The position numbers and the translations under genes are program-made. Below are positions 5,345 to 41,922 of a stretch of DNA of 64,000 nucleotides, one piece after another (within the stretch, counting starts at the first letter, position 1; each line of letters starts with the position of its first letter). The notes below the pieces were generated by a model. The model was not told the DNA's origin and made no database searches. It saw nothing but the letters and a program-made list of their open reading frames with translations. This stretch comes from Candidatus Fraserbacteria bacterium (GTDB taxonomy: Bacteria; Bipolaricaulota; Bipolaricaulia; RBG-16-55-9; JAJCYT01): NCBI GenBank assembly GCA_029262795.1, contig JAJCYT010000018.1, positions 195,762-259,761 of the forward strand, written 5' to 3'.

Positions 5345-6493
5345 TTGCATAGCCCCCCCGTGGGGGCCGCCATGGTTTTCAATCGTGGCTCGCAGACGAA
5401 AGGAGCCAATACCGTGAGTACAAAAACTCATTTACTGAAACGACTGGTGCCGCTGATGCTCATACTTGTGTTTGCCTCCAGTGCGTTTTCTAATCAAGTC
5501 GAAATCGGCGTTCGAGTGGATCAGCAAGCGCCCGATTTCACCCTGCCCCAAGTGGACGGGGACCCTGTAACCCTCTCTGATGTTGTGGCTCAAAACGACG
5601 TCACTCTGATTTACTTCTTCCTGGCGGCCAGCTGACCTACCTGTCCTTCGGCATGGTTGCCGGAAATTCAAAAAGAACTCGACGGACGCTACGCAGGCCT
5701 AAATGTAGAAACCTTGGCCATCTCCACAGGTGATCCTGAATGGTATTTGAGCGCGTTTAAAAAAGAACTCAATGTCACCATGCCCTGGTTGAGGATGGAC
5801 ACGCGACTGCCAAACCCCTATTACCAGGAACAATACGATCTGTGGGATCTCAATGACACGCACCCCACTCTGGCGGTATTGGATGCCAACGGCGTGATCC
5901 GCTACCGGGCCACGGGCGATGGGGGCGTGGGCGAAAACAACATCAACTACCGCGTCGCCTTCAACATGATTGGCGAATTAATTGACGAAACCCAGACCCA
6001 GGACAATCAGTCTGCAGTGGGGGGCACGCCGGATAGCGTTGCAACCATCGGGTTGCTCGCTCCGGACTTCACGCTCAACGATATGAACGGCAACGCCGTG
6101 ACCCTTTCAGATTATCTGGGTACAGTTGTTGTCATCGATTTCTGGGATTGGGGCTGTGCCGTCTGCGGCGACCCCAACAATGTCAACCTGAAAAGCATCT
6201 TCCGCGAATACTCCCGTGAACAGGTGACCGTGCTCTCGGTCAACCTTTACCCTGAACCGGAAATGGAGGAAATGGAGGATTATATCGGGACACAACGGAT
6301 TCTTTATCCCGTGATGCTCAAAGGATACGATGCGGTTGGCAGCTCTTACAACATTACTCAGTTCCCCATGCTGATGATAATTGACAAGGATGGCATCATC
6401 CGCTACCGAGAAGTGACCGAGTCCCTTGTCTTCAATGAGGATGCTCAAACAATGCTGGACACCTTGGTTGGCGAGTTGGGTGGCTCCATGTAA
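5345..6493 (+). CDS. two-domain periplasmic thioredoxin-like (TlpA/AhpC-TSA fold) selenoprotein; in-frame TGA at 5633..5635 read as Sec (U-P-T-C) in domain 1, WDWGCAVCG in domain 2
   Basis: ORF track splits it into 5345..5635 and 5657..6493 in the same frame. Read-through gives ...TLIYFFLAAS-U-PTCPSAWLPEIQKELDGRY.... A near-identical paralogue at 18537..19652 has TGA at the aligned position. Signal peptide LLKRLVPLMLILVFASSAFS; true start probably ATG 5372 or GTG 5414. Confidence 0.6.
5646..5665 (+). other. candidate bacterial SECIS hairpin 14 nt 3' of UGA
   Basis: CGGCA-uggu-UGCCG stem-loop (5649..5662) with GGU in the loop, extendable by flanking UUC/GAA. Confidence 0.4.
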
Positions 6494-6532: not shown

Positions 6533-6844
6533 ATGACCCAAGCACAAGCTCCAACCCGTACGGGAAGCCTGTCGCACAACCGGCGTGGCAAAAGCGATAT
6601 CCAATTACGACTTCGCACGATAGGCGGGCATCTTAATGGCATCGAGAAGATGATCGATCAGGATGCGTATTGTGTGGACATCCTGCGTCAGATCACGGCG
6701 GTGCAATCGGCCTTGTCTCAGGTTGCCTTGATTATGATGTCCAGCCACATGAATCACTGTGTCAAATCTGCCATTCAACGAGGCGAAGGCGATGACGAAA
6801 TTGAAGAACTGGTCGATCTTTTGAAATGCATGAAACATCTTTGA
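6533..6844 (+). CDS. CsoR/RcnR/FrmR-family metal-sensing transcriptional repressor
   Basis: LRTIGGHLNGIEKMIDQDAYCVDILRQITAVQSALSQVALIMMSSHMNHC matches the DUF156 helical-bundle pattern with Cys/His metal ligands. Confidence 0.75.
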   Translation: MTQAQAPTRTGSLSHNRRGKSDIQLRLRTIGGHLNGIEKMIDQDAYCVDILRQITAVQSALSQVALIMMSSHMNHCVKSAIQRGEGDDEIEELVDLLKCMKHL

Positions 6845-7048: not shown

Positions 7049-7531
7049 TTAAACAACGATGAGTGGAACCTTCATACCAGCTTCGTAATGGCCGGTCACA
7101 AAGCAACCGATTTCCCATTCACCCTTCTTGTCTTCAGGAATCTGGATGAAGACTTCTGCACCTGATTCACCTTGGTGGGTTTCCACACCAAAGAAACCGT
7201 CCAACAACCACTCTTTGTAGTTGTGGTTTTCCAGGTCAGGGTCTCTACCGAACAGTGCATTATGGGCGACATCATCGTCCAGGTTAAAGAAATAGAGAGC
7301 GTATTTCTTGCCTGCTTCAAGCGTGATAGGAGCGTTGTTTTCGCCGCCAGGAATGCGGAAAAACATGGACCCCATTTCGATGAAAATTTCCTCATCCAAC
7401 CAAAGTTCGTGTGGTTCATCGGCTTGAGCTCGAACGTTTCTGGATTTCACCATTGTAGCGGCCAGTCCACCCAGAGCTGCTGCACCTGCGGTTTTGAGCG
7501 CTTTGCGGCGCGTCATTTTCTTTTCAGACAT
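7049..7531 (-). CDS. Tat-exported cupredoxin (blue copper) domain protein
   Basis: Twin-arginine signal MTRRKALKTAGAAALGGLAA; C-terminal type-1 Cu motif GCFVTGHYEAGM (C-x4-H-x4-M). Confidence 0.6.
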   Translation of the reverse strand: MSEKKMTRRKALKTAGAAALGGLAATMVKSRNVRAQADEPHELWLDEEIFIEMGSMFFRIPGGENNAPITLEAGKKYALYFFNLDDDVAHNALFGRDPDLENHNYKEWLLDGFFGVETHQGESGAEVFIQIPEDKKGEWEIGCFVTGHYEAGMKVPLIVV

Positions 7532-8362: not shown

Positions 8363-9941
8363 GCAATCCTCCTAACGACGTTGGCAATGCCTGATGTGCC
8401 AAGGGCAAGGCGAACCAGAAGTGGCTTCCCTCACCAAGTGCGCTGTCAAAGGCCAGCGTTCCGCCCATCAGGTCAACGTAGCGATTGACCACAGTTAGCC
8501 CCAATCCCATGCCTTGACGATTACGACCCGTTCGTTCTGCGCGGGTGAACGGCTCAAACAGCCTGTTTTGATCCTGCAGCGCAACCCCGATGCCAGTGTC
8601 GGACACCGAGAAATAGATGGAATGATTCCGGCGTTCAGCAAAAACCCGTACTTGACCACAGTCGGTGTATTTGATTGCGTTGTCAATTAGATTCAATAAC
8701 ACCTGTCTCAACTTGGTCTTATCGGTTTTCACTGGCAGGCTGGGTGCGACGTCGACCACCAGCTTGAGCCCTTTATTTAATAGCAATGGCCGTTGGCTTT
8801 CGAGCACTTCGTCCACGACCTCGGCCGCATTGAAATACACGCAGTGCAGGGGTTCGCTGCTGCCTTCCAGCCTGGAAAACTCGATTAAATTCTCGATCAG
8901 CGCCAGCAAGTGTTTGCCCGCCCGCAGGATGGCATCTGTGTATTGATGACCCGCTTTACTGAGTGTGACATTGACCTCATCCCGCAGCAGACTGGCGAAC
9001 CCCAGCACGGAGTGTAGCGGGGTTCGCAATTCATGACTGATTGTGGTTAAGAAATCGGATTTGGCGTGGTTGGCTTTCTTTAACTCTACATTCGTACGCC
9101 TCAATATATCTCGCTGATAGACGATCGAGTGGGCCATTGTGTTGAACTCATTGGCCAGCATCTCAATTTCGTCTCCGCTGTGAATATTGGTGCGAACAGA
9201 CACCCTGCCGGATCCAAATGCTCGCATCGTGTCGCTTAAGTGCTCGATTGGTCCCAAGATCATGCGGAACAAAATCCAACTGCACAGGATGCCCAGCGCC
9301 ATCAACCCCAAGCTCAATCCGATGAGCAACAGCGATTCCTGTTGCAACTCCTGTTTCAGTGGTTGCAACGAAAATCCCACACGAACGTAACTGTCGCCGC
9401 CATTGATCAGGCGCTCGTACGCTTGCGGCGTGATGAAGCGGCCGTATTTCGATAGGGAGTTGCTGGCTTGCTCAAAAGGATAAATGATGTCGAGGTGGTT
9501 GGCATCTGCTTGACTGGGCTTAAACTCGGTGATCAGGATCTGTGTGGACGGTGGTTGCGTGGCCAGGTTGATGTCAAAACGCTGCTTTTGGGAAACCATG
9601 TTGCCATACAACACTATCTGTACATAACCCAGTTCCTCTGTCCACAAGTGTTCGGCCAACGTGTCCAGGTCGTGACCAACCTCAAAGATCAGTCCCTCCA
9701 CTGCTTCCTCAGCGGCGTGCCTAGCATACTTCAGCGCTTGCTGCTCGTATTGAGCCTTGAGTTGGTTATTTAAGCGCTGTGTGGTTAAGACCCCAAAAGC
9801 AACGGCCACAATCACACTGAACCCCAAGAACGCGAGCATAAATTTGTAGCGTAAGCTCAAGCGCATGGGGTCCCCTTCTCCAATCAACGGATCGCGGCCT
9901 GAAATCTGACCGCGACCACTGGTCGTTGCGGCCTTAACCAT
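8343..9941 (-). CDS. sensor histidine kinase
   Basis: HisKA H-box SHELRTPLHSVLGF, HATPase N/G boxes (LIDNAIKYT, GMGLGLTVV), two TM segments; likely start at internal MRLSLRYKF. Confidence 0.85.
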   Translation of the reverse strand: MVKAATTSGRGQISGRDPLIGEGDPMRLSLRYKFMLAFLGFSVIVAVAFGVLTTQRLNNQLKAQYEQQALKYARHAAEEAVEGLIFEVGHDLDTLAEHLWTEELGYVQIVLYGNMVSQKQRFDINLATQPPSTQILITEFKPSQADANHLDIIYPFEQASNSLSKYGRFITPQAYERLINGGDSYVRVGFSLQPLKQELQQESLLLIGLSLGLMALGILCSWILFRMILGPIEHLSDTMRAFGSGRVSVRTNIHSGDEIEMLANEFNTMAHSIVYQRDILRRTNVELKKANHAKSDFLTTISHELRTPLHSVLGFASLLRDEVNVTLSKAGHQYTDAILRAGKHLLALIENLIEFSRLEGSSEPLHCVYFNAAEVVDEVLESQRPLLLNKGLKLVVDVAPSLPVKTDKTKLRQVLLNLIDNAIKYTDCGQVRVFAERRNHSIYFSVSDTGIGVALQDQNRLFEPFTRAERTGRNRQGMGLGLTVVNRYVDLMGGTLAFDSALGEGSHFWFALPLAHQALPTSLGGLHETARH

Positions 9942-10902
9942 CTTGATTGATCAATTGCTCCAACGTTTCAAAAAACGCCGTGGTCAGGGGGACGTTCTGC
10001 CGATACTGGATCACACCTTCTGGGTCAATAATGAGTGCACCCGTTGAGGTGAACCCGTAGTAGACGGCTGTTTTTAAGCCATCCATCAATAAGGTGAAAT
10101 CGACTTCCCGTTCCTGCTTGAATGCCTTGAGTGTTTCGGGATCAGGTGCCAAATCCATGGTCACCCCCAGCACGGCCACATCGTCTCCATAGGCCTCCAA
10201 TGCCTGCTGCAAAGGAGAGAGTACATCGCCACAGTTGGCGTCATGAGAACCAAAGAAGCCCAATACAATTGTTTTTCCTGCGTAGTCCGACAAGCTCACC
10301 GGCTCGAGGTCCAGGTTTTCCAGCGTGAAAGCCAGAGCCCTTTTTCCCACCTGATTGCCCACCTCCAACTCGCCGACCAATGTTTCGACCATGTCAGCAG
10401 ACTCGTCATCGAAGACTTTGTTCGTCTCCTTGAGGCGGATGATGCCGTCTTTGTCGATGAGGAACAGGATGGGGGTTGCAAACACGCGATAGTCAAAGGC
10501 AGTCTCAAGTGCGTTGACCAGAATCGGAAAACCAAGTGCCTTTTCTTCACGATAGGCTTTGAGCTGTTCCAGGTCAGGCTGCGGATCCTGGTTCAGTGAG
10601 AGCACTTGAATTTGTTCACGGCTATAAACGTCGTGCACGCGAGATTGGAGCGCCGGCATTTCGACCTCTCGACACTCAATACAACCCCATCCCCAGAACG
10701 TCAGGGCGACCACCTTGCCCCTGAAATCAGACAGCGACACCTCATTTCCATCCAGGTCGAACAAGCTGAAATCGGGCGCCATCTCGCCCACAACACCTTG
10801 GCCAAAAGCGGTGGATGGGCCCAGCATCAAGCTCAACACCCCCACCACAAGCGCCAACCTCCAGGCGGATCGAACAGCAGACCACATGTTACATCCCCTC
10901 AC
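9934..10902 (-). CDS. two-domain secreted TlpA-like thiol:disulfide oxidoreductase
   Basis: Signal peptide; domain 1 FWGWGCIECR CxxC motif; domain 2 thioredoxin-like with single Cys (FFGSHDANCGDV). Confidence 0.7.
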   Translation of the reverse strand: MRGCNMWSAVRSAWRLALVVGVLSLMLGPSTAFGQGVVGEMAPDFSLFDLDGNEVSLSDFRGKVVALTFWGWGCIECREVEMPALQSRVHDVYSREQIQVLSLNQDPQPDLEQLKAYREEKALGFPILVNALETAFDYRVFATPILFLIDKDGIIRLKETNKVFDDESADMVETLVGELEVGNQVGKRALAFTLENLDLEPVSLSDYAGKTIVLGFFGSHDANCGDVLSPLQQALEAYGDDVAVLGVTMDLAPDPETLKAFKQEREVDFTLLMDGLKTAVYYGFTSTGALIIDPEGVIQYRQNVPLTTAFFETLEQLINQDG

Positions 10903-11461
10903 TTTCAGGTAACTCGGCTACGAGTTCGTCGATGAAGGTCTTGACCTCTTCATCAAACAACCTGTTTCCTTCTTTAAAGCGGATCACGCCTTCGTGATCG
11001 ACGATGATCAAAATCGGGGTGGCAAACACCAGGTAGTCCACCGCAGTCTTCAACCCGTCAACAAGCATGGGGTACGTGATCTGTTTGTCCGCTATGTATT
11101 CGCGGATGTTGCCCAGATTTGGGTCGACGTCCTGATTTACCGCCAACACAAGCACTTGTTCGCGTGAAAAAACGTCCCACACTTCGTGTTGTAAGGCTGG
11201 CATCTCTTCTTCCTTACATGAGATGCACGTCCATCCCCAGAACGTCATGACCACAACTTTGCCGGCGTGGTCGGAGAGGGTGAAATCAACCGTCTCCGTG
11301 TCGACATCCTCTAGGGGGTTGAGGTTCATCAAGGTAAAATCGGGCGCGAGGTCGCCCACATTGGGACCGACCACAGGTTCATCCTGTGCGTTCAAAGCCA
11401 CGCCAAAACACATGCCCAAACTCAACACAATTACCCAAACTGCTAATTTTTTTTTGTACAT
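10889..11461 (-). CDS. secreted TlpA-like thiol:disulfide oxidoreductase
   Basis: Signal peptide LAVWVIVLSLGMCFGVALNA; FWGWTCISCK CxxC motif; paralogue of the adjacent gene. Confidence 0.7.
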   Translation of the reverse strand: MYKKKLAVWVIVLSLGMCFGVALNAQDEPVVGPNVGDLAPDFTLMNLNPLEDVDTETVDFTLSDHAGKVVVMTFWGWTCISCKEEEMPALQHEVWDVFSREQVLVLAVNQDVDPNLGNIREYIADKQITYPMLVDGLKTAVDYLVFATPILIIVDHEGVIRFKEGNRLFDEEVKTFIDELVAELPESEGM

Positions 11462-12111: not shown

Positions 12112-13107
12112 CTACTTCCAGAGCTCGGCCAGTGCCGCGTTGAAGTAAGGGAAAGCCACGTTTATTGGCGTGAGATCGGAACCGTAAAACATCAGATCTG
12201 TGGGTGCTCCCAGCAGTTCCACACCCTGACTTAGGTGGTCACTCAATGCACTCGATGCTTGTAGCAAGAGCGCATAATGGTCCCAGGCGACGATACCGTG
12301 AAGCAGGCCTTGCTCAAACAGCGCCTCCCAGTTTTCAGGAACGCCCAATGCCCCCAGCCGGATGTCACTGCCAAGCTCCTCATGAAGGTAGCTGACGATA
12401 TCGGACGCGCCCGTCACCAAGGAGTGGTCGGTCACAATAATGGCGGCTAAGTCTGGGTGATCCTTGTAGGCTTGAGACGTTTCGGTGCTGCCACTTTCCT
12501 GAACCACCGGATAGGCACCGCGGAAGTGGGGGCTGGTTTTGAGCCCTTCAAGCAGATCGGCCTGCAAAGGGTCGATAAAGTAGCCAACCACGGCAAATGG
12601 CCGCGGCCCAACATCCTCCATGGCCTGTGCCCAGGCTACGCCCAATTGGAAGGCATCTACCCCAAACAGAGGCAGGTCCAGACCTTCGATCCGGCGCACG
12701 GTTAAGGCCAAAGGCGTCTCATTCACCTCCACCAGTTCGCGCACGATGGGGGTTAAGGGGTCGGCCTCTTCCACCGGCGCTGCTGGCGTGAGCAAGATGG
12801 CTTCGAAGGCCAGGTCTCTCAATTCTTCCAGAGCTTCCACTTGTTGTGCAGACACCGACAGCCGCGCCAGCATTTCGCTAAGCGCGTCCCGCGTGCAAAA
12901 GGCTGCGGCCGGAGTTTCGTACAACCCCACCTCCATGTTCAGAGTTGTACTCAAAGTGCTTTGGACCGCTTCAAAATCTTGGGCCATCGCGTCTACGGAG
13001 TAGGTGACGATCCCCATGGCAATCACACTTTGGCCACCTGCCAGAGGTGCCAAACAGAGCAGCAGTAACAGGGCAACGACACAGCGTCTCATCGTTTCCT
13101 CCTTCAT
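12112..13107 (-). CDS. secreted periplasmic-binding-protein type 1 (LacI/sugar-binding fold)-like protein
   Basis: Signal peptide; paralogue of 13172..14149 and 16583..17668; PBP1-like pattern (IAMGIVTYSVD..., LLHGIVAWDHYALLLQAS). Confidence 0.5.
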   Translation of the reverse strand: MKEETMRRCVVALLLLLCLAPLAGGQSVIAMGIVTYSVDAMAQDFEAVQSTLSTTLNMEVGLYETPAAAFCTRDALSEMLARLSVSAQQVEALEELRDLAFEAILLTPAAPVEEADPLTPIVRELVEVNETPLALTVRRIEGLDLPLFGVDAFQLGVAWAQAMEDVGPRPFAVVGYFIDPLQADLLEGLKTSPHFRGAYPVVQESGSTETSQAYKDHPDLAAIIVTDHSLVTGASDIVSYLHEELGSDIRLGALGVPENWEALFEQGLLHGIVAWDHYALLLQASSALSDHLSQGVELLGAPTDLMFYGSDLTPINVAFPYFNAALAELWK

Positions 13108-13171
13108 AAGTGAAGGCAGCCCTGAGGAAAATCCCCAGGGCTGCCTTTGTTAGACCTTTGTCCCTTTTTCG

Positions 13172-14149
13172 TTACCAGAAACGTCCCACCCGGTTAGGTG
13201 TGTCCTGCGAATACGGATAGGAAGTGTGGTTAAACGAAGTTGACCTGCTGTAATACAGGACGTCCGGATAAAAATTGTCTGGCGTAACGCCATCCCGGAT
13301 CATCACTTTGGCCATCACCGACGCCTGCATCAGCGTGAGGTAATTGTCCCAAGTGAACACCCCGTGCAACAGTTTTTGATCAAACAGATCTTTCCAAGTG
13401 TCAGGTGCAAACACCGATCCCAGCTTAATCAGCCGGTCTGTACCTGCCGTGACAGCCTGAATGGCAGCTGCAGCGCCAGCAGCGTATCTCGAATGGGAAA
13501 CCATCACATACTCAATCGGTTCGGTTTCGTCGGCGATGGCTTGTGCGGTTTCTGCGCGGCCATCGCTCAAGGCTTCATAGAAACCTCCGAAGGAGTCTAA
13601 TTCCATGAGCGGTGAGATGAAGGCGTTTTGGGTTGTATCGGACAAATTACCGACCACCACAAAGCGTCCACCATCCTGTTGTTCGGCCATGACTTTACCC
13701 AGTTCAGCCATATCAACGCCGGCAAAGGGCAGGTTCAGTTCGGGGATGTTGCGACCGTGCAACACTACGGGAACCTGTTTTGCTGCATTGCTAATGGCAT
13801 TGCTCACCAAGCTGAAATCATCCACTGGAGTGATGACCAGTCCTTGCACACCTGCGGCAAGCAGGGAGTCAATCGCAGCGACCTGATCTGCGGCCGTGCT
13901 GGCTTCGCGGATGTCTACCAGATAATGCTGAGGTTCGACATCGGGCAGGTCACGCGAGCTGGCGTTGCCTTCTGGCACTGGCAATACTTGCAAATCACCA
14001 TTGATTGGGTTGGTGTAGAATTGAATCCCCCACACTTGACCGTCGATCTTGTAGGTCACCACACCAATGATAATGTCGGGCTGGCTTTGGGCGATCACCA
14101 AAGGGGCAACCAGAGCCGCCAGCAACATAAAGATGAAAAAGCGTTTCAT
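13172..14149 (-). CDS. secreted periplasmic-binding-protein type 1-like protein, 13 nt downstream of deiodinase-like selenoprotein gene
   Basis: IIIGVVTYKID...; AAIDSLLAAGVQGLVITPVDDFSLVSNAISNAAKQVPVV; RFVVVGNLSD; LLHGVFTWDNYLTLMQASV = PBP1 hallmarks. Confidence 0.55.
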   Translation of the reverse strand: MKRFFIFMLLAALVAPLVIAQSQPDIIIGVVTYKIDGQVWGIQFYTNPINGDLQVLPVPEGNASSRDLPDVEPQHYLVDIREASTAADQVAAIDSLLAAGVQGLVITPVDDFSLVSNAISNAAKQVPVVLHGRNIPELNLPFAGVDMAELGKVMAEQQDGGRFVVVGNLSDTTQNAFISPLMELDSFGGFYEALSDGRAETAQAIADETEPIEYVMVSHSRYAAGAAAAIQAVTAGTDRLIKLGSVFAPDTWKDLFDQKLLHGVFTWDNYLTLMQASVMAKVMIRDGVTPDNFYPDVLYYSRSTSFNHTSYPYSQDTPNRVGRFW

Positions 14150-14161
14150 GAGCTACCTCCC

Positions 14162-14953
14162 TTAAAAGCCTGGTTCCACACCGAAGATGTTGCTCAACAC
14201 TTCGTCGTGCTGTTCGGGGCGTTCCCAGTTCTTGAAGTGGATGATCCGGCCCTTGAGGTCGATGACCATGCCAAATTGTGGCCCCATGCCCATTGAACTT
14301 GACACAACGGTGGTCGTGGAGCTTGTCCGCTCGAGCAAGTTGATTTTGTCTTCCTCAATAAGGAGGATGTGGTTTTCAGGACGAACGCCGTTTTCTACGT
14401 AGGAGAAGGTTTTCTCCATCAACAACGCACGTTCACGTCGGGCAGCATAAGTTTCTACGTCTAAAACTTCTGACTGCGTGAATTCAGGATGGCGTTCGCG
14501 GCCGTATAGATTAACGATCACGAATGGGAATTCGATGAATTTTTCTGCAATCTTATTGTTCGGAACCCAGTTCCGTAAATAAGGTGGTCAGTACCAGCTG
14601 CCGTTGATCAGCAGTACAAATTTTTCACCGCGGAACTGGGACAGCGTAACGGGCACACCATCTCTGGTCAGCTGTGTGAAATCAGGCACGATCATGCCTG
14701 GCTGAACAACGTCAGGGCTACGGAAACCGTATCTTGGATCGAGTTCACCGGCTGCAACCAAACCTGGTGCGGTGTCGGTGAAGAAATTTGGATCGGCCAG
14801 ACCTGCCTCTGTGTAGTACTCTTCGGCGAGAGCCTGCCAGGCGTCCAACTCTCCTTCTTCATAATTTTGTGACAACACTGTGCTTTGGCCTAAAATCATA
14901 AAGGCCAGTGCAACGAGGGCTGCCAAGGTGAGAACTTTACGCATGTTGATCAT
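14162..14953 (-). CDS. periplasmic iodothyronine-deiodinase-like selenoprotein (Prx-like fold); in-frame TGA at 14588..14590 read as Sec
   Basis: ORF track splits at TGA (14588..14953 and 14162..14521, same frame). Read-through gives ...FVLLINGSWY-U-PPYLRNWVPNNKIAEKFIEFPFVIVNLYGRERHPEF.... Matches eukaryotic DIO active site FGSCT-U-PPF and downstream FLIIYIEEAHPSDGW pattern. Signal peptide present. Paralogue at 17683..18411 has TGA at same position. Confidence 0.65.
14561..14575 (-). other. candidate bacterial SECIS hairpin ~12 nt 3' of UGA
   Basis: mRNA CGGAAC-ugg-GUUCCG immediately downstream of UGA-CCA-CCU-UAU-UUA. Confidence 0.4.
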
Positions 14954-16582: not shown

Positions 16583-17668
16583 TTAACCAAACCACCAATA
16601 CCAGATCATGCCGAACTGACGTTCGCTCTCATAAGGGAAACGCACGTAAGCGGGCAATCCGCCACCAATGGCACCTGTTCCCAGCCACATGATGGACACA
16701 TAATTGTCGTTCAACGGCGTGCCATCGAGCAAATGCACCTTGAGGGCAACAAGACCATCCAACAGCATTGGATAGTAGTCGGGTTGTACGTTGCCTTTGA
16801 TACGTTTTTGCTGGATCAGGCTGGTAAAGTTTTCCGGTGCGCCAAACACCCCCACCGAGATCTTGCGTTCGGAATCGATCACGGCTTCAACGATGTTTGC
16901 GGTCAACTGATGATCCATCACCGCAATGCCCACCAAGGCTTCGTTTGCTGCAATCAGAGCCGCAGTTTCTGAAGCATCCGTGGTGACCACGACTTCCAGC
17001 AAGTGATCGCCAACGGCTTCCTTAAAGCCTTCGATCATGCCCATTTGCAAAGGATCATCCAAGCTGGTGGCAAACAAGGCCACTTTGTCTTCGTCAGCTC
17101 GGTTTCCGAATGCTCCGGCACCATTGAGTGGTTCTTGAGGAGCAGATAACGCCATCCAGCCACGGCCCCAAGCGTTGCCAAATGCAAATGGTTCAACCCC
17201 AACAAATGCGGCATTGTTAATGCCAGGGATGTCCCGATAAGCAAACGCCATGGGAATGCCGGCGCGGATGGTGCGTTCCACTTCGTCGCGCAGAGCATTC
17301 ACATTGGGAACCGGCGTCAACAAGATACCATCGACACCCAGCTCTCGAAGTTCTTGCAACGCGGCAATTTGGGCTTCTGCCGTATCGGCGTTTCTAACGA
17401 CCAACTCGACCAGCGGTTTATTTTGCACGGCTGGGGTTTCCAGCACCCCGCCGCCAGTTTCGCCATAGGCACCCTGAATCGGCAACACGTTGATGTCTCC
17501 CAACAGCTTGCCGGGGTCAGCCAGCCTGGCTGTGGACATGGCTAGAAAATCCACCTGATAGGTGATCACTCCCAACACCATCGTCCCGTTTTCCTGGGCC
17601 ACATTACTAACCGTGCTGGCGCTCACCAAAACAGCTATTGCCAGCATGAGTATAAAGATACGTTTCAT
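16583..17668 (-). CDS. secreted periplasmic-binding-protein type 1-like protein, 12 nt downstream of second deiodinase-like selenoprotein gene
   Basis: MVLGVITYQVD; AAEAQIAALQELRELGVDGILLTPVPNVNALRDEVERTIRAGIPMAFAYRD; ISVGVFGAPE. Confidence 0.55.
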   Translation of the reverse strand: MKRIFILMLAIAVLVSASTVSNVAQENGTMVLGVITYQVDFLAMSTARLADPGKLLGDINVLPIQGAYGETGGGVLETPAVQNKPLVELVVRNADTAEAQIAALQELRELGVDGILLTPVPNVNALRDEVERTIRAGIPMAFAYRDIPGINNAAFVGVEPFAFGNAWGRGWMALSAPQEPLNGAGAFGNRADEDKVALFATSLDDPLQMGMIEGFKEAVGDHLLEVVVTTDASETAALIAANEALVGIAVMDHQLTANIVEAVIDSERKISVGVFGAPENFTSLIQQKRIKGNVQPDYYPMLLDGLVALKVHLLDGTPLNDNYVSIMWLGTGAIGGGLPAYVRFPYESERQFGMIWYWWFG

Positions 17669-17682
17669 GGATGATCACCTCC

Positions 17683-18411
17683 CTATAATCCGGGTTCCAG
17701 GCCGAAAATCTGGCTGAGAACTTCGTCCAGTTTTTCCGGTCGTTCCCAAATCTGCGATTCAACGATATGTCCGGTTGGATCGATGATCCAAGCGCCTTGT
17801 GGCCGCAGCCCATAGAGGGCGGTTGCCACGGTGGCCATGGTTGGCTGTTCGTGCCCGACATCGGGGATTTGCCCCACCGGGAAGCTTTCATCGATGAGCA
17901 GATAACGGTTGGCTGGGAATGCCTGTGATGTGAGGTTCAGCGTCAGCATCATCAGGCGCGCCCGTTCAAGGCGTTCTGCATAGGTTTCGATGAGCCATTC
18001 TTCATCGGTTACAAATTCTGGATGACGTTCACGACCGTAGATCGACAAGATCACAACTGGGAAGTCGGCAAATTTCTGACCTAATTTATCCATAGGAAGC
18101 ACGTTCCTGAGGAATGGTGGTCAGTACCAGCTCCCAGTTTCTATTACAACAAACGAATTGTCCAGGTATTGGCTCAGGCTGAATTCAATCCCGTTGATAT
18201 CCAACAGGGTGAAATCCGGCCCCAACATCCCTGGCATAATCGCTGAAAAGTCATTGAATTGATTACCCAACAGCGCATTTTCATCAACGCCTTCAACATA
18301 AAAGGCTTGCGCATTGGCAATCCAGGTGTCCATATCGCCCTGAGCTGAAGTAATGCTGCTGAACAGCGCCAGTGCCAGTGCAAAAATGGACATCATTCTG
18401 AAGACTTTCAT
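17683..18411 (-). CDS. periplasmic iodothyronine-deiodinase-like selenoprotein; in-frame TGA at 18121..18123 read as Sec
   Basis: Split ORFs 18121..18411 and 17683..18102 in same frame. Read-through gives ...FVVIETGSWY-U-PPFLRNVLPMDKLGQKFADFPVVILSIYGRERHPEF.... Signal peptide MMSIFALALALFSSITSA. Hairpin AGGAAgcacgUUCCU (18094..18108) after UGA. Confidence 0.65.
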
Positions 18412-18536
18412 TGAGAGACACCACCTTTCACATAATGGTTGAAATTAAAATTTAGATTAAAACTGAACTTTACAAAGATCATTCTCCAACGATCACCTCC
18501 TGTTTTTGCTAGTCGGCTCATTCTGTAAAACTTCTT

Positions 18537-19652
18537 TCAGTTCACATGGTTGACCAAGGGCGATCCCAAGTGTTCATTCAGAATTTGGATCGCCGTGTTG
18601 TCAAAATCTTCACCGCGGTAAAGGATCACACCATTGATATCCAGCAATAGAAACACAAAGTCACCCGAAGCCTGATAGGCCCAGGCCACATCCCCCAACT
18701 CATCTTTTACAACGGCATAGGTAATCCCGGCACTTCTAATAAAATCCTTGAGCACCTCGATTGGCGAATACTGGTCGATGCCCAGTACGGTCAACTTTTC
18801 CGGGCCATAATCATCCAACAAATCCTGGGCAAACAAACCTGGCACCAGCGAGCCACATTCCACGCATCCCGTCCCCCAAAACGACAGCAGGATGAGTTTG
18901 CCTCGATTGTAAAAATCAGACAAGGTCAGGGGATTGCCTTCCACATCGTTTAAGGTAAAATCGATGGCTTGTAATCCTGCCTGATTGCCTATCTCAGGCA
19001 GGGCGGCCATGTTGGCCTCTTCCAGCAGTTGCCCGACCAGATCAAAACCACTTCTATAATCCAGGTCTTCTTCGGTGGGACCACCATATCCTGTGTCCCG
19101 AAATCGTATGATTCCATTGGCATCAAGCACCAAGAGGGTGGGATGCCCTTCTGTGGTATCCAGGTTGTATTGCGCATAGATTTCAGCGAAATATCTTCCC
19201 ACACCAATGTCCATGGAAAGCCAGGGAAAAGTGACCCCCAGTTCTCTTTTGAAGGCATGTAAGTACCACTCAGGGTCGCCGGTGGAAATTGCAAGCCATT
19301 GCACGTTTTGTCCGTTGTATCTTCCATCGATTTCTTTTTGCATCTCCGGCAGCCATGCCGATGGGCAGGATGGTCAGGTGGCAGCAAAGAAGAAGTACAA
19401 CACAGTCACATCATACTGCTCGACTTGCTCCTGCAGTTGAATGGGGTCTCCGCCGCCCAACTGAGGCAGGGTGAAATCGGGCGCTTGCTGACCCACGTCA
19501 TACCCGATTTCGACTGAGACATTTGAAGCTTCTGCATAAGTGATGATTGGATCAGTCGTGGTTGTGGCCGTCAGCCCAATCAGAACAACCCACAAGAAGG
19601 CCTTTGTCCATTTAAGTTTTGTTGTGTACTTAAACATGATCGTTCCTCCCAA
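18537..19652 (-). CDS. two-domain periplasmic thioredoxin-like selenoprotein (U-P-S-C in domain 1, WGTGCVECG in domain 2); in-frame TGA at 19374..19376
   Basis: Split ORFs 19374..19652 and 18537..19343 in same frame. Read-through gives ...VLYFFFAAT-U-PSCPSAWLPEMQKEIDGRY.... Paralogue of 5345..6493. Hairpin CGGCA-uggc-UGCCG (19347..19360 region) follows UGA. Confidence 0.6.
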
Positions 19653-19681
19653 AATTTTTGAATGACCTCATCCCTGGGTCT

Positions 19682-20467
19682 TCAAAAATCAATCACGACA
19701 TTTTGCCAATATTGGTCCTGCAACCAGAGTGGCAGTTGCATGGGGTTGTCTGCATGGCAAGCGAAACAGTCCACACCTGTTATAAAGTCGTCTTTGACAA
19801 AACGGTTTGAAATTTCGATTGCCTCATGGGTGGCCGGAACGGAGGTCTGATGGCAGCCCGGACAACCAAACAGATCGCGCCAAGTGGGGTCCATCAGCGC
19901 ACGCGGTGTGAACCTGGAATGGCAATTGGCACAGGTGGTCTTTTCGACATAACTGGAAATCGTGACGCTGTCATCGTTTTGTTCAATTTGAAATTCATTA
20001 TGGCAAAAGGTGCATTCCGTGCCAAAATCCATAATCTTCTGCTTCTGATGCACCTGATGGTGGTTCTTTTCTTCAGTGATTTCGATGGCGCCATCTTCGG
20101 TAGGCATTTTTCGCATCACGGTTTCCTGGCTATAGATGTCGCTGTGACACGTCAGACAGGTTTGTCCCAATTTCGCAACATCTTCAGGGACTTCACTCAC
20201 CGTGTTGAGGTTAAGGTGAAATTGGGCCACCTGATCAAATAGTGTTGCCACTGCCGGATGAGGGCCAGGGGTGCTTGAGCTGGTTGAAATTACCGAGCCC
20301 GTTATCAACACGTCTTCCAGGCTGTGCCCGTCTGAAGGAAAGTTCAGCGGCGGCGCTGCCTGTGCAATTTGTATCAGAAACAAACTCATCAAGATAAATG
20401 CAATCCCTCGTAAACGTTTCATTTTTCTGTTCATTGTGGTTTTTTTTGTTTTCATGATGACCTTCAA
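19682..20467 (-). CDS. pentaheme c-type cytochrome (secreted/periplasmic)
   Basis: Five CxxCH motifs: CLTCH, CTFCH, CANCH, CPGCH, CFACH; signal peptide GIAFILMSLFLIQIAQA. Confidence 0.8.
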   Translation of the reverse strand: MKVIMKTKKTTMNRKMKRLRGIAFILMSLFLIQIAQAAPPLNFPSDGHSLEDVLITGSVISTSSSTPGPHPAVATLFDQVAQFHLNLNTVSEVPEDVAKLGQTCLTCHSDIYSQETVMRKMPTEDGAIEITEEKNHHQVHQKQKIMDFGTECTFCHNEFQIEQNDDSVTISSYVEKTTCANCHSRFTPRALMDPTWRDLFGCPGCHQTSVPATHEAIEISNRFVKDDFITGVDCFACHADNPMQLPLWLQDQYWQNVVIDF

Positions 20468-27839: not shown

Positions 27840-30800
27840 TTGAATCCAACCTTAACAATTGAGCCAACAACCGCACGTCAAGGAGAATTGTTCATTGAGC
27901 GGGGAACCGGATATTGTGCTAATACTGTTGCAACTATGTTTATCGGCATACCAAATAGTGCAACTGTCGAACAAAGAGAAATTCAAATTGACCAAAACGG
28001 CGAATTCTATATTCCTTTTGTTGTTCCCTTAAGTTATCCACTCGGGGCAGGCTGGATTGAAGTTGAAGATGTTGGAGGATTTATTAGTCCAAGGATCACA
28101 TTTACAGTCGAGCCAGTTCAAGATTCTCCCGATATTCCTGTGGTATCAAATTGCGATTTTCAGGCTCCCCCTTTGCTTGTATCTGAAGACAATGCTCCAT
28201 TGGGAAATAGAATTCCTTTGATGCTTGTTCACGGAATAACATCTGAGTGTGAACTTGGTGAACTTGAACTAAATAGAGAAGGTTGGAGAGCATTTGTCGA
28301 GTCTTTTTGGAATGAGAGCCTTGATACAAATTTCAAGCTATTTAGATTCAGATATGCAAGCTCCAAACAACACGTAAATCAATCTGCAAAACAATTGAAA
28401 GATGTTATCAATACTGATGCAGAATTATCCCAATCAAACAATATTGTTGTAGTTGCACATAGTATGGGAGGGCTTGTTACGTTAGATTACATGATCAATC
28501 AAGGTCAAGGTGACAAAATACAAAAGCTTATCTCTCTTGCTACCCCATATCAAGGAACCCCATTTGGATCCTTAGTAAAATATTTAAATGCACGCAAGAA
28601 AAGTGAAACACTAAATGACTTTGTAGATCTTTTCTGGCCAAATCTACAAGATATTCTTCAAGTTCTTAGCATTACTCCTCTTGAGCAATTAATTGAAAAT
28701 GCAAATGAGGATCTTAACAATCTTGCCTGGGGTTATGCAGGACTTTCCAATATCACTGATACCTCTTTAGATTCACTAAAATCAATCGGCAATGGAGTTT
28801 ATTCACAAAGGTATCCTATAAATATGGAATCTTATTTCAACAATGGTTATCTTGTTTCTCTTGCTAACAACCTATCAATAGACCATAAAATAAAGGCATA
28901 TTGCGGCAGTATTCCTCCTGATAATGGCTTCGACATATTAAATTCACCATCTCTAATTGATGCACTTGATATGGATCTTGTACAAGACTACTTAGCTGGT
29001 CTATTAAGCTTACTTCCTCAAGAATTTCAAAGCGATGGCATTGTTCCTAGAAGTAGTGCCGAATTTGATGGTCAGGATGTTGAAAGAAGGCTTGAGGGAT
29101 GCTTCCCAAACACTAATCATACAAATATGCCCAGTCATACCCTTGTCATTAATGCTGTATTAGAGGATCTTAGAAGAATTTGGGAGATTAACTCTGAGCC
29201 AATTCTAGTTGAAGTTGATCTTGATCTCGGTGATGGTCCCTTTGAAGTTGGGAAACTAATCAATGGATCTTTTACTATCAAGAATCAGCATACCCAGCCA
29301 ATTACCTTGAATTCCCTAACTGTTGGTGGTCGATATGATCAATTTGGACTCAATGAAATATGGGATTTTCCGCACCGAAAAAACCTGATATTGGATGCAG
29401 GAGCTACTTACACATATATAGATACATTTACTCCAACAAAGGCGGGCGAATATCATTTCTTTGTAGGCTATGAAATTGCTCCAAATCCTTGGAACACCAA
29501 TGTCCCAAACTTATCTGGTAATGTTGTAAATGCCGATATTGTAGTTTCTAATGATGTTGCCTTACCAAAGGCAGATTTAACTGTTGATTCAGTCTTTGCT
29601 CCAACTGTTGCAAAACATGGAGACTCTATTTCCGTATCCTGGAGAGCCAAGAATATAGGAACTACAAGTTCTTCATCTTTTAATAGCTTGATATCTTTAT
29701 CAATACCTCCATTTGGCACCACATATCCTCTTGGTACTTTTTCATCTAATTCCATAGGCGCAGGAGGAAACAGCAATGAGACGCAAACCATGCAGATTCC
29801 AAACAACATTCCTCCAGGCGATTATTACGTTACCGTGTTTGTGGACAGTTTGGATGCCGTTATGGAAGGGAATGAAAATAACAACATCAATAAGGCATCA
29901 AATAGAATTGCTATTATCTCCAACCAACCTGTAGCAGAACCATTTATTACGTTCCAGAAAACCCTTCGTCCATCATCTGATCCTCTGTGTAACGGTGAAA
30001 TTGCTTGTGGTCCTCAAATTGATTTAACAAGTTCTGACCCTACAGATGGATCAAGAGATGTGATCTTTCGACTAGAGGTGACCAATACAGGCGGTGCAGC
30101 AGCCACCTTTAGTTTGCTGGATCCACTTGGGAATGGCGATTTTGTTTGTGTGGAAGCAGCACAAAACCCAATGGCTGCTTGTAACATCAATAGCAATGAA
30201 TTGCGAATAGAAAGCCAAGTGGTTCAACCAAATTCGATCTGGTTTTATGATTTTCGAGCAAGATATGTGGGCAGCACTCAGGCAGATGGTGCAGTAATTC
30301 CGAATACAGCTGAAATCATTTGGATTGACAATTATTACGATGCAGCATTAGGCATTGACAATGGCCGACATGGGGCATTGTCCGATTTTGAAGATACGTT
30401 TTTGAGTAACCCTTCGGTCAATCATGTAGGTGGAATAACTTTTAGCAGCAATCCTTCTGGAAGAACACTCACTGTACAAGGCCAAACGGTTCAAACCCCT
30501 TACACGTTAGAGTGTAATCCTGGATCATTGGTTTCAGCCTCTACCAATCTTACTCAAACAGCACCCAGTCATGGCCGATATAGTTTCCGCAACTGGAGCA
30601 ATGGCAGTTTCCTTCAAAGTCTGTCAATAACATGCCCAAATGGAGGAACAACCATGACAGCTATTTATGATCTCCAGTATCAATTGATTACATCAGCCGC
30701 ACCCAATGGAACAGGCAATGTTTCTTTGAATCCTGCAATAGTTGGAAATTGGTACAATGTCGGCAGCTCAGCTCAGCTCACACCAAATCCTATCAACGGG

Positions 30801-38441: not shown

Positions 38442-38675
38442 TATAGCCATTCGCCTAGCTTGAAACCATAGCCAACATTGGCATATTTAGATTTGGTCTA
38501 AATTTTTTCGCCCGCCCTAGGGCGATTATTAAATATGATTCTAGATCCATATTATTAGCATATACTTTTATTCTAAGATGGTTGAGTTAAATCGTAGCAT
38601 GGGATGTTATGATTGGAGTTCGTAATATTATTGGATAGTATTTACAGATCCTTACTCCAAAACAAAGGGTAAACA

Positions 38676-41600: not shown

Positions 41601-41918
41601 AGAGGAGGTCAGTCTAATATTGGGTATATTGAAAAGCGTTTAAAAGACAGATCTTTTCGAAATTATCCTAAGTTTACGGATTCAGATGAAGAATTTATTT
41701 ATGGTGTAATCAGAATGATATCACAAGGGCTTATGGCGAAAAAAATTGCTCAAGCTATCAAAAAAGATCTTGAAAAAACTCTCGACCCTCTCGACATGCT
41801 GTCAATTTTATACAAACATATTCGTACTGTAGATGTAAGAAAAGAACAGGCCGATAATAAAAATGTAAAGCGTGAGATCATTCTTTCGAGTTATCAAATA
41901 GCAGATCAAAGCGATTAA
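38676..41918 (+). CDS. PLD-family (HKD) nuclease fused to SNF2/DEAD-like SF2 helicase
   Basis: HKD motif HAKVYIGRFFPDDRDYGFVITGSSNFS; helicase motifs VVGLGKTF (I), DEAHRFRN (II), QRAGRINRLG (VI). Confidence 0.8.
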   Translation: MNRQDTDHTFFTNDKNQTLLDRFKSTLIDTEFFDMLVGYFRSSGFHQLHESIGSISKTRILVGLSIDAKTYYAINTTGKQPMLEFESHRYAKSEFQRKLIDEVENSEDSDENLELGLKKFIEFLQTNCPDYNNDLEKDGNGKKLEIRVFPSRNIHAKVYIGRFFPDDRDYGFVITGSSNFSYRGLVANREFNVELRQRQDVQYALDQFEELWTQAVDVSEDFVETTKNKTWLNDTISPYELYLKLIYEYMQEDINLKDDMEIFLPDRFLLLKYQQQAVQQALKKLNEHKGVFLADVVGLGKTFITAQLLQQIRGRILVICPPTLKGYWEESLHDFRVPARVESLGKLEKVINFGLNRFDYIVVDEAHRFRNEATRSYADLLDICRDKKVILVTATPINNKIDDLFSQLKLFQVPKNSTIPGIPNLERFFASLRKRFKGIDRTDPNYKLITKEVSHEIRERILKHVMVRRTRTDVLTYFKEDLISQNLFFPEFQNPRRIIYTFENKLEKTFNQTINLLHEFRYARYIPLLYYAGSKRLSEFELQQQRNVGGFMKGILIKRLESSFHAFRKSVGRFIESYEQFIGMLSSGTVYISKNVDVYDLIDSDDIETLERLVEEEKVQKYSSKDFREGFIKDLEYDLETLKKVELLWHDVEQDPKIDSFVNQLVSDPTLKNSRLVIFTESKETGDYLFDQLNQKFAGKVIFFSSLGGRVGKVPVTHNPTTARELIQSAFDPNQRKTNEDLRILISTDILSEGINLHQANVLINYDLPWNPTRVLQRAGRINRLGTKHPEIFIYNFFPTSHADTHLGLEANITHKIQMFHDILGEDAKYLSDGEEIGSQELFDSLNKKQTYTGEDDEGDSELMYLEMMRKLRDENPKLFERIKRLPKKARSGRKAQNLKLDQLVTFFRVGSLKKFYLNEGEQSSEITFFDAANLLACSPDTPRHQIPPNYYHLLNTNKQRFAEDIFQDDTQVGNRGGQSNIGYIEKRLKDRSFRNYPKFTDSDEEFIYGVIRMISQGLMAKKIAQAIKKDLEKTLDPLDMLSILYKHIRTVDVRKEQADNKNVKREIILSSYQIADQSD

Positions 41919-41922
41919 ACTC

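What the first reader, a model, noticed from the sequence alone, without database searches (positions are those of the whole stretch)
5345..6493. Thioredoxin-like two-domain protein with in-frame UGA at the CxxC position (U-P-T-C): hidden selenoprotein
Two same-frame ORFs are separated only by TGA. Read-through yields a continuous TlpA-like domain whose redox motif becomes S-U-P-T-C. A CGGCA-UGGU-UGCCG hairpin sits 14 nt downstream, as expected for a bacterial SECIS. The paralogue at 18537..19652 has TGA at the aligned codon and the same downstream hairpin. An accidental nonsense mutation would not be preserved in both copies. ORF callers will split this gene.
Basis: partly seen in the sequence, partly recalled or inferred. 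Interest (0 to 1): 0.8.

Follow-up and report, generated by a model that had tools for sequence, protein, structure and literature searches.

The report
Split selenocysteine thiol-disulfide oxidoreductase gene
The two same-frame ORFs are almost certainly one gene for an exported two-domain redox enzyme whose active-site UGA is read as selenocysteine; this kind of selenoprotein is already known and gene callers routinely split it, so this is a good catch but not a new principle.

Summary
One TGA (5633-5635) separates two same-frame ORFs. Read through, they give one 359-aa protein (likely start GTG 5414) with a signal peptide, an N-terminal Prx/TlpA-like domain with S-U-P-T-C, and a C-terminal TlpA/ResA-like domain with C-A-V-C.

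- A single Pfam AhpC-TSA match (1-123/124) spans the TGA.
- The TGA column aligns with the first Cys of CxxC in Cys homologues.
- Eight foreign or paralogous copies (42-78% protein identity over the part after the TGA) keep TGA at that codon. dN/dS is 0.05-0.15 on both sides of it.
- All 15 close database homologues start just after the TGA, and about 18 N-terminal fragments end exactly at it.
- A 6-8 bp hairpin with a UGG-containing loop starts 11-13 nt after the UGA in every copy. Its synonymous sites are frozen.
- TGA is an ordinary stop in 16 of 40 window genes.
- The window holds four such genes: two of this family and two of a deiodinase-like "GSWY-U-PPF/Y" family.

I could not check the Sec machinery (selA, selB, selD, tRNA-Sec). 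It is absent from the window, and the rest of the genome was out of reach.

Verdict: a real but unannotated selenoprotein, a new member of the known UxxC Prx-like/TlpA-like selenoprotein class. Interest is moderate to low.

The parts
5414..6493 (+). Full selenoprotein gene A1: 359 codons plus the TAA stop, including one in-frame UGA. ATG 5372 is an alternative start.
   Evidence: Read-through translation. AAGGAG at 5400-5405 precedes GTG 5414. Orthologue N-termini P0058 and L006 start at the equivalent residue. tblastn alignments run collinearly through the TGA.
5414..5491 (+). Predicted Sec-type signal peptide (VSTKTHLLKR-LVPLMLILVFA-SSAFS).
   Evidence: Judged by inspection of the sequence: a basic n-region, a hydrophobic core and a small-residue c-region. 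The same layout occurs in all the N-terminal fragments of the family. No signal-peptide predictor was available.
5516..5905 (+). N-terminal Prx/TlpA-like thioredoxin-fold domain carrying the Sec.
   Evidence: Pfam AhpC-TSA 1-123/124 and Redoxin 2-139/148 over residues 49-187 of the ATG-5372 version. Best solved-structure match is Bcp/PrxQ 2cx3, E 5e-10.
5633..5644 (+). Redox motif U-P-T-C. The TGA at 5633-5635 is the selenocysteine codon.
   Evidence: TGA is kept in all ten distinct family-A copies examined, including the two in the window. It aligns with the first Cys of CxxC in five Cys-type relatives, and the second Cys is invariant.
5647..5664 (+). SECIS-like hairpin: 7-bp stem UUCGGCA/UGCCGGA with a UGGU loop, 11 nt after the UGA. 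A weak lower stem at 5642-5644 / 5668-5670 is fully formed in only some copies.
   Evidence: Eight of the ten distinct copies were folded and all form this hairpin. On the ten-sequence alignment, 88% of cells are paired versus 33-55% when the partner is slid. Stem codons are frozen at synonymous sites: Ala GCA 7/7, Pro CCG 9/9, Ser TCG 7/9. Flanking fourfold sites use 3-4 codons.
6119..6397 (+). C-terminal TlpA/ResA-like thioredoxin-fold domain. Its CxxC (C-A-V-C) lies at 6155-6166.
   Evidence: Pfam Thioredoxin_8 1-93/94 plus a second AhpC-TSA stretch. Solved-structure matches are 3kcm, ResA 1st9 and others. W..GC..C is invariant in 16 family members.
18537..19637 (-). Paralogue A2 of the same family. 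Sec codon TGA at 19374-19376 (U-P-S-C), hairpin at about 19346-19361. The gene ends in a genuine TGA stop.
   Evidence: It is 76% identical to L009 over 359 aa, aligned through the TGA.
6533..6844 (+). CsoR/RcnR-type metal-sensitive repressor directly downstream of A1, possibly in the same operon.
   Evidence: Pfam Trns_repr_metal, E 1e-26. The same neighbour follows the A1 orthologue in L006.

Best explanation
Window 5414..6493 is one gene for an exported two-domain thiol-disulfide oxidoreductase that contains selenocysteine.

Decoding (inferred from established bacterial Sec biology): the UGA at 5633 is recoded because a small hairpin with a G-containing apical loop sits 11 nt downstream in the mRNA. 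That hairpin recruits SelB-GTP-Sec-tRNA(Sec) to the ribosome.

The product has three parts:
- a signal peptide;
- an N-terminal Prx/TlpA-like thioredoxin-fold domain whose attacking nucleophile is Sec (U-P-T-C, forming a selenenylsulfide with the Cys three residues on);
- a C-terminal TlpA/ResA-like domain with an ordinary C-A-V-C.

Function (inferred, less certain): it acts outside the cytoplasm as a reductant or isomerase for disulfides in envelope redox proteins such as c-type cytochromes or copper proteins. The Cys domain probably relays electrons to or from the Sec domain.

Shown here: gene continuity, domain identity, Sec/Cys alignment, conservation of the TGA and the hairpin, and purifying selection on both halves.
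Inferred: actual Sec insertion, export, and the substrate.
For: - One Pfam AhpC-TSA domain (1-123/124, 108.6 bits) spans the TGA.
- The TGA column aligns with the first Cys of WCPPC, YCPAC, TCISC and GCAVC in Cys relatives. The second Cys and the cis-Pro are invariant.
- Ten distinct family-A copies were examined: two in the window, one more from the same genome (L011), and seven from two further metagenomes and a MAG. All carry TGA at this codon, with conserved protein on both sides.
- dN/dS is 0.05-0.15 both upstream and downstream, at dS 0.5-1.7.
- All 15 close hits among 5.8 billion proteins start right after the motif, at L/MPEIQKELDGRY or MQKELDGRY or later.
- About 18 representatives in the 50%-identity library are 58-218 aa fragments ending in ..FF[FLY]AA[ST] or a close variant of it.
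- All eight copies folded form the hairpin, 11-13 nt after the UGA, with a UGGU, UGGC, UGGAU or UGGUU loop; in L010 the loop reads UUGC. The two copies with Ala->Gly restore full pairing in a register shifted by one.
- Synonymous sites in the stem are frozen.
- TGA ends 16 of 40 other genes in the window, so there is no genome-wide reassignment.
- A second, unrelated thioredoxin-fold family in the same window has TGA at its active site in both copies and in L003. Its hairpin shows a true compensatory change, CGG/CCG versus CGC/GCG.
- A small apical loop containing G, immediately downstream of the UGA, is the published hallmark of a bacterial SECIS (PMC1088965).
- For the function: a multiheme cytochrome c gene sits directly upstream of this family in the window (A2), L003, L008, L009, L010, L014 and L016. 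A CsoR-type repressor follows A1 and its L006 orthologue.
Against: - No selA, selB, selD or tRNA-Sec was found in the 64-kb window or in any fetched locus. The rest of the genome could not be searched.
- Each hairpin alone is not significantly more stable than shuffled sequence (z -0.5 to -2.6 for most copies).
- Classical covariation is thin, because the region is also constrained as protein (2 pairs with changes on both sides; 9-23 of 500 shuffles reach the observed values).
- No Rfam family matches. To my knowledge Rfam has no general bacterial SECIS model, so this says little.
- No curated NCBIfam model reaches its cut-off.
- The substrate and the direction of electron flow rest on gene context only.
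Confidence: 0.87

Rival explanations
1. The gene is a selenoprotein as described, but the N-terminal domain works as a selenol peroxidase (Prx/GPx-like). It would reduce peroxides outside the cytoplasm, with the C-terminal CxxC domain as its built-in reductase, instead of acting on protein disulfides.
For: The N-domain's best solved-structure match is a Bcp/PrxQ thiol peroxidase (2cx3, E 5e-10). There the Cys of UPTC aligns with the peroxidatic Cys. Its top Pfam family is AhpC-TSA. A weak NCBIfam hit to thioredoxin-dependent thiol peroxidase also appears.
Against: The Prx catalytic signature is missing. The Pro of PxxxT/SxxC is Leu, Phe or Tyr, and the Thr/Ser position is the Sec itself. The conserved Prx Arg aligns with the invariant Pro of an H-P-T motif, which is the cis-Pro loop typical of Trx/TlpA-type oxidoreductases. 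The literature separates UxxC 'Prx-like' proteins from true TxxU peroxiredoxins (PMC1088965).
Confidence: 0.2
2. The UGA is read through by a standard tRNA, for example near-cognate Trp or Cys at a leaky UGA-C context, or by another recoding route. The result would be a full-length protein without selenium.
For: Every copy has C after the UGA (UGACC). From general knowledge, that is a leaky termination context in E. coli. The Sec machinery was not demonstrated.
Against: The position is the catalytic first Cys of CxxC, where Trp would kill activity. A hairpin at canonical SECIS spacing is kept, with frozen synonymous sites. A Cys codon would be a simpler way to put Cys there, yet no close Cys orthologue exists. 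A second family in the same genome shows the same arrangement.
Confidence: 0.05
3. It is a pseudogene, a sequencing error, or two truly separate genes: a small N-terminal ORF plus a 278-aa protein restarting at TTG 5657.
For: Gene callers and public records treat it as two CDSs. A TTG start is available 22 nt after the TGA.
Against: The same TGA appears in independent assemblies (three Logan runs and an NCBI record) and in seven foreign loci. Purifying selection acts on both sides in one frame. The stretch between the TGA and the restart (PTCPSAWL) is conserved as protein. The restart codon is not conserved: P0009, P0010 and P0015 have their first start 15-40 residues further down. A downstream fragment alone would lack strands and the active site of the domain.
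Confidence: 0.02

Closest known systems
Prx-like thiol:disulfide oxidoreductase selenoproteins (PF00578/PF08534, UxxC; 'Prx-like protein' of the Sargasso Sea and GOS selenoproteomes; PMC1088965, PMC2398784, Table 1 of PMC13188914)
   Same: An AhpC-TSA/Redoxin-type thioredoxin fold. A thioredoxin-like UxxC replaces the TxxC/TxxU of true peroxiredoxins. A bacterial SECIS hairpin follows the UGA directly. Such genes are routinely truncated in databases.
   Different: Here the Sec domain is fused to a second, Cys-type TlpA/ResA-like domain (and a third domain in P0011). No close Cys orthologue was found. No curated NCBIfam selenoprotein model reaches its cut-off. I could not compare directly with the reference sequences (WP_010940744.1, HEU0032618.1, MGB1650493.1), because they cannot be fetched by accession here.
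TlpA / ResA / CcmG (DsbE) extracytoplasmic thiol-disulfide reductases (cd02966 TlpA-like family)
   Same: An exported thioredoxin-fold domain with CxxC and a cis-Pro loop. Genes sit next to c-type cytochrome genes and, for A1, next to copper-related genes (CsoR-type repressor, cupredoxin-like protein). This fits the known roles of ResA/CcmG in apocytochrome c reduction and of TlpA in Sco/CoxB reduction (established knowledge).
   Different: The nucleophilic Cys of the first domain is Sec. There are two tandem domains. Scores against the ResA, DsbE and TlpA NCBIfam models are far below their cut-offs (86 vs 170, 31.5 vs 123, 25 vs 230), so it is not an equivalog of any of them.
Bcp/PrxQ peroxiredoxins (e.g. 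Aeropyrum pernix 2cx3)
   Same: Best solved-structure sequence match for the N-terminal domain. The second residue of the motif (Cys of UPTC) aligns with the peroxidatic Cys.
   Different: It lacks the Prx Pro, Thr and Arg catalytic residues.

Membership tests
Bacterial selenoprotein gene (Sec-decoded UGA) | An in-frame UGA kept among diverged orthologues, with protein conservation on both sides | tested here: met
   All ten distinct copies examined have TGA at the same codon. dN/dS is 0.05-0.15 upstream and downstream.
Bacterial selenoprotein gene (Sec-decoded UGA) | The UGA aligns with a (catalytic) Cys in homologues | tested here: met
   With the Sec position entered as X, the column falls on the first Cys of CxxC in P0073, P0093, P0016, the window's own Cys-type TlpA gene and the protein's own C-terminal domain.
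Bacterial selenoprotein gene (Sec-decoded UGA) | A SECIS stem-loop immediately downstream of the UGA, with a small apical loop containing G | tested here: met
   A 6-8 bp stem starts 11-13 nt after the UGA, with a 4-5 nt loop, in all eight copies folded; seven have a UGG-containing loop and L010 has UUGC. Synonymous sites are frozen. Statistical support from single-sequence folding and from covariation is weak.
Bacterial selenoprotein gene (Sec-decoded UGA) | selA, selB, selD and tRNA-Sec present in the same genome | not testable with these tools
   None is in the window or the fetched loci. The remaining ~218 kb of the contig and the rest of the genome could not be retrieved.
Bacterial selenoprotein gene (Sec-decoded UGA) | UGA is not generally a sense codon in this organism | tested here: met
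   16 of 40 well-supported genes in the window end in TGA.
Prx-like thiol:disulfide oxidoreductase selenoprotein family (PF00578, UxxC) | A PF00578/PF08534 domain above the gathering score | tested here: met
   AhpC-TSA 108.6 bits (cut-off 26) and Redoxin 97 bits (cut-off 26.6).
Prx-like thiol:disulfide oxidoreductase selenoprotein family (PF00578, UxxC) | A thioredoxin-like UxxC motif in place of the TxxC/TxxU of peroxiredoxins | tested here: met
   U-P-T-C and U-P-S-C. The U aligns with the Prx Thr/Ser position and the C with the peroxidatic Cys of 2cx3.
Prx-like thiol:disulfide oxidoreductase selenoprotein family (PF00578, UxxC) | Sequence-level relationship to the published reference members | not tested
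   The reference accessions listed in PMC13188914 could not be fetched by accession.
ResA / DsbE / TlpA equivalogs (NCBIfam NF002854, TIGR00385, NF047696) | A score at or above the curated cut-off | tested here: not met
   86 vs 170, 31.5 vs 123.15 and 25.4 vs 230 bits. The protein works like these but is not a member of the curated families.
TlpA-like thioredoxin-fold superfamily (cd02966-type) | CxxC at the start of the helix plus a conserved cis-Pro loop | tested here: met
   C51 and P125 are invariant columns in the alignment with Cys-type TlpA-like proteins.
Typical peroxiredoxin (Prx/Bcp) | The PxxxT/SxxC motif and the conserved catalytic Arg | tested here: not met
   The Pro is L, F or Y, the Thr is Sec, and the Arg aligns with the Pro of H-P-T.

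The most novel reading that the evidence does not exclude
Family A is a Sec-only clade, with no Cys orthologue found. It belongs to a conserved, undescribed extracytoplasmic module: multiheme cytochrome c -> Sec-TlpA-like two-domain protein -> deiodinase-like 'GSWY-U-PPF/Y' selenoprotein -> one or two periplasmic-binding-protein-fold proteins. The module appears in the window and in six metagenomic or MAG contigs of a Bipolaricaulota-like lineage. It could be a selenium-dependent envelope redox pathway, in which electrons pass from a cytochrome through two selenoproteins to a small molecule held by the binding protein (for example reductive dehalogenation or another reductive chemistry), and not just cytochrome maturation.
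Probability: 0.15. Interest if true: 0.6.

Novelty: new member of a known kind. Interest (0 to 1): 0.35.

Why it matters
For annotation, at least four genes in this window are wrongly split into eight CDSs in public records. A fifth (P0008/L011) is split elsewhere in the same genome. The active-site halves of these enzymes are therefore lost from functional predictions.

Biologically, the lineage is poorly known, probably Bipolaricaulota-like. It invests selenium in several exported thioredoxin-fold enzymes that sit next to cytochrome c genes. This adds one two-domain subfamily, with no Cys counterpart found so far, to the catalogue of UxxC selenoproteins. It does not change how Sec decoding or thiol-disulfide exchange is understood.

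Tried and rejected
- **Sec machinery.** ARAGORN and Rfam on the window found only tRNA-Gln. Pfam on all larger ORFs found no SelA, SelB or SelD. ARAGORN and Rfam on the fetched loci gave one hit, a 97-nt 'tRNA-Thr' in L006. Rfam does not support it and it lies in coding sequence, so I rejected it.
- **Extending beyond the window.** Exact-protein look-ups returned only short Logan contigs or nothing. The genome-contig scan did not return the window's own genome.
- **Structure prediction.** There is therefore no 3D model and no fold search.
- **Rfam at a permissive threshold around the hairpin.** It gave only a meaningless miRNA hit, E = 5.
- **Column-wise covariation.** It is weak, because two of the ten copies shift register and the region is highly conserved. 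I rely on per-sequence folds and synonymous-site counts instead.
- **Global TGA reassignment (code 4/25).** Rejected, because TGA is a common genuine stop here.
- **Names and accessions for the NCBI record.** None could be obtained. The taxon is inferred only from the best named hits to one gamma-glutamyltransferase: Candidatus Bipolaricaulota at 67% and 54% identity.
- **True peroxiredoxin.** Considered and rejected on the catalytic residues.

Full report
**1. What is in the sequence**

At 5633-5635 a single TGA separates ORF 5345..5635 from the same-frame ORF 5657..6493. Reading through gives ...DVTLIYFFLAAS-U-PTC-PSAWLPEIQKELDGRY....

The paralogue on the minus strand (18537..19652 in the finding) has TGA at 19374-19376 in ...DVTVLYFFFAAT-U-PSC-PSAWLPEMQKEIDGRY....

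Downstream of both TGAs lies the hairpin UUCGGCA-UGGU-UGCCGGA (A1) or UCGGCA-UGGC-UGCCGG (A2). In A1 the 7-bp stem occupies nt 15-32 counted from the U of UGA, so 11 nt separate codon and stem.

The likely start of A1 is GTG 5414. It has AAGGAG 8 nt upstream, and the orthologue fragments P0058 and L006 begin at the equivalent residue. A2 starts at ATG 19637, like P0066 and L009.

**2. It is one gene, not two**

With Cys in place of the stop, one Pfam AhpC-TSA match (model 1-123 of 124, 108.6 bits) and one Redoxin match run across the TGA. A second thioredoxin-fold domain (Thioredoxin_8 plus a second AhpC-TSA stretch) follows.

With the Sec position masked as X, MAFFT places it on the first Cys of CxxC in five Cys-type relatives (WCPPC, YCPAC, TCISC, GCAVC). 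The second Cys and the cis-Pro are invariant columns.

Against solved structures, the N-terminal domain matches Bcp/PrxQ 2cx3 best. There U falls on the Prx Thr/Ser position and the following Cys on the peroxidatic Cys. The C-terminal domain matches TlpA/ResA-type proteins (3kcm, 1st9 and others).

**3. Conservation**

A search of 5.8 billion proteins returned 15 close relatives (41-78% identity). All are 228-405 aa fragments that begin just after the motif, at L/MPEIQKELDGRY or MQKELDGRY or further down.

The mirror search used the 87-aa N-terminal piece against 1.84 billion representatives. It returned about 18 fragments of 58-218 aa that end in ..FF[FLY]AA[ST] or a close variant of it. The nearest proteins that continue past this point are ordinary Cys-type TlpA-like proteins at low identity.

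DNA was fetched from a MAG, two further metagenomes, and a Logan assembly of the same genome (L003, L004, L006-L011). Every copy has TGA at this codon, with conserved protein on both sides. That makes ten distinct sequences including the two in the window.

For pairs that align without gaps, dN/dS is 0.05-0.15 upstream and 0.08-0.11 downstream, at dS 0.5-1.7. tblastn alignments run collinearly through the TGA.

This excludes a nonsense mutation, an assembly error and a two-gene arrangement. The restart codon used by gene callers is not even conserved.

**4. The hairpin**

Eight of the ten distinct copies were folded, and all give the same hairpin, 11-13 nt after the UGA. The stem is 6-8 bp and the loop is UGGU, UGGC, UGGAU or UGGUU. 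L010 has UUGC, because its Trp codon reads TTG.

The two copies in which Ala (GCA) became Gly (GGA or GGC) also changed the preceding Ser codon from TCG to TCC. They regain a perfect 7-bp stem in a register shifted by one.

Stem codons are frozen at synonymous sites: Ala GCA 7/7, Pro CCG 9/9, and Ser TCG 7/9, where the two TCC are the register-shifted copies. Nearby fourfold-degenerate codons use 3-4 synonyms, for example Pro+1, Gly+17, Arg+18 and Val+24.

Column-wise covariation is weak: 88% of cells are paired versus 33-55% when the partner is slid, and only two pairs change on both sides. Single-sequence stability is mostly not significant. So the hairpin is supported by conservation beyond what the protein requires, not by energy.

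A position immediately downstream of the UGA and a small apical loop containing G are the published features of bacterial SECIS elements (PMC1088965).

**5. Genome-level support and its limit**

TGA terminates 16 of 40 supported genes in the window, including A2 itself, so TGA is not generally a sense codon.

A scan for same-frame ORF pairs separated only by TGA found 23. I found domain support across the stop for four of them, and the other 19 were not scanned. Those four are A1, A2 and two genes of a second family, at 17683..18411 and 14162..14953 on the minus strand. The second family reads TGSWY-U-PPF and NGSWY-U-PPY.

This motif resembles the deiodinase active site. The proteins hit the NCBIfam 'deiodinase family protein' model only weakly (E 2e-6, far below the cut-off).

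Their TGA is also kept in L003. Their hairpins show a true compensatory change, CGG...CCG versus CGC...GCG.

A third family-A paralogue of the same genome (P0008) lies outside the window.

I found no selA, selB, selD or tRNA-Sec in the window or in any locus. I could not reach the rest of the genome. This is the one untested requirement.

**6. What it probably does**

The N-terminus has the layout of a Sec-type signal peptide, as do all the family fragments. This is judged by inspection only.

The N-domain lacks the Prx Pro/Thr/Arg catalytic set and instead has the Trx/TlpA-type cis-Pro. A thiol-disulfide oxidoreductase with Sec as nucleophile is therefore more likely than a peroxidase.

Gene context is conserved.
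- A multiheme cytochrome c gene lies directly upstream of family A in the window (A2), L003, L008, L009, L010, L014 and L016.
- Family B and one or two periplasmic-binding-fold proteins lie downstream in the window, L003 and L016. L007 keeps only a binding-protein gene next to family A.
- A1 and its L006 orthologue are followed by a CsoR-type repressor.
- A1 also has a cupredoxin-like gene, a Rieske/cytochrome b pair and two Cys-type TlpA-like genes nearby.

This fits the established roles of ResA/CcmG/TlpA in keeping apocytochrome c and copper-site cysteines reduced outside the cytoplasm. The substrate itself is inferred, not shown.

**7. Comparison with what is known**

UxxC 'Prx-like' selenoproteins, thiol-disulfide isomerase-like selenoproteins and deiodinase-like bacterial selenoproteins were described in the Sargasso Sea and GOS analyses. 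They are listed in the 2026 review of more than 110 prokaryotic selenoprotein families (PMC1088965, PMC2398784, PMC13188914).

The present protein meets the defining features of that class. No curated NCBIfam model reaches its cut-off.

Its particular features are:
- fusion to a Cys-type TlpA-like domain;
- apparent absence of Cys orthologues;
- several paralogues per genome;
- the conserved cytochrome / A / B / binding-protein module.

The best named relatives of one conserved window protein are Candidatus Bipolaricaulota MAGs. The MAG holding L003 and L004 is labelled 'uncultured Thermotogae bacterium'.

**8. Verdict**

It is a new member, with a distinctive two-domain architecture, of a known kind.

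Interest is moderate to low. A specialist would not be surprised. The value lies in correcting annotation and in the conserved double-selenoprotein module.

Noticed in passing
window 17683..18411 (-) and 14162..14953 (-); L003 4407..5168; L016 10946..11698: A second family of TGA-interrupted thioredoxin-fold genes, 'GSWY-U-PPF/Y'. The motif is deiodinase-like, with a weak NCBIfam NF038285 hit. The TGAs are at 18121-18123 and 14588-14590. The TGA is kept in L003, each copy has its own downstream hairpin, and one compensatory pair change is seen. In L016 the gene is called as 105 + 131 aa pieces.
   Followed up: partly
window 20467..16583 (-); L003, L016; partly L007, L008, L009, L010, L014: A conserved gene module: multiheme cytochrome c -> family-A selenoprotein -> family-B selenoprotein -> one or two Peripla_BP_4 proteins. 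The full order is seen in the window, L003 and L016, and parts of it in the other loci. A partial second copy in the window (B2 -> two binding proteins) lies at 14953..12112.
   Followed up: partly
L011 (Logan SRR15505518), protein P0008: A third family-A paralogue. The database places it on a contig of the same length (282,193 bp) as the window's source contig, but it lies outside the window. It has the same TGA and hairpin.
   Followed up: partly
window 9934..10902 (-) and 10889..11461 (-): Two overlapping Cys-type TlpA-like genes. One has two domains (WGCIEC plus a degenerate second site) and one has a single domain (WTCISC). They lie next to a two-component system, so this 20-kb stretch is unusually rich in exported thioredoxin-fold proteins.
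   Followed up: partly
window 7049..7531 (-) and 6533..6844 (+): A protein with no Pfam match that has a twin-arginine-like N-terminus (MTRRKALKTAGAAALGG) and a C-terminal GCFVTGHYEAGM motif resembling a type-1 copper site. It lies beside the CsoR-type repressor that follows A1.
   Followed up: no
window ~38600..53300: A low-GC (34-37%) island. It carries an SNF2/PLD-domain helicase, an Eco57I/MmeI-type methylase, an SMC-like ATPase, GmrSD, a Rep_trans-like protein and a serine recombinase (51780..53243). The recombinase overlaps tRNA-Gln (53211..53284, minus strand). This is probably an integrated defence or mobile element.
   Followed up: no
window 27840..38441 (+): A giant 3533-aa ORF with PD40, Laminin_G_3, CARDB, InlB B-repeat and beta-propeller domains, presumably a surface protein.
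   Followed up: no
proteins P0081, P0089 (..LLYFHMAVG), P0084, P0099 (..LLYFFASW), P0097, P0100 (..GYW / ..GAW), P0101 (..EFGSFT): Other short thioredoxin-fold N-terminal fragments in the representative library stop right where the redox motif should begin. They are probably further TGA-truncated selenoprotein families.
   Followed up: no
L006 6542..6638: ARAGORN called a 97-nt 'tRNA-Thr(tgt)'. Rfam finds no tRNA there and the stretch reads as coding sequence, so it is a false positive and not a tRNA-Sec.
   Followed up: yes
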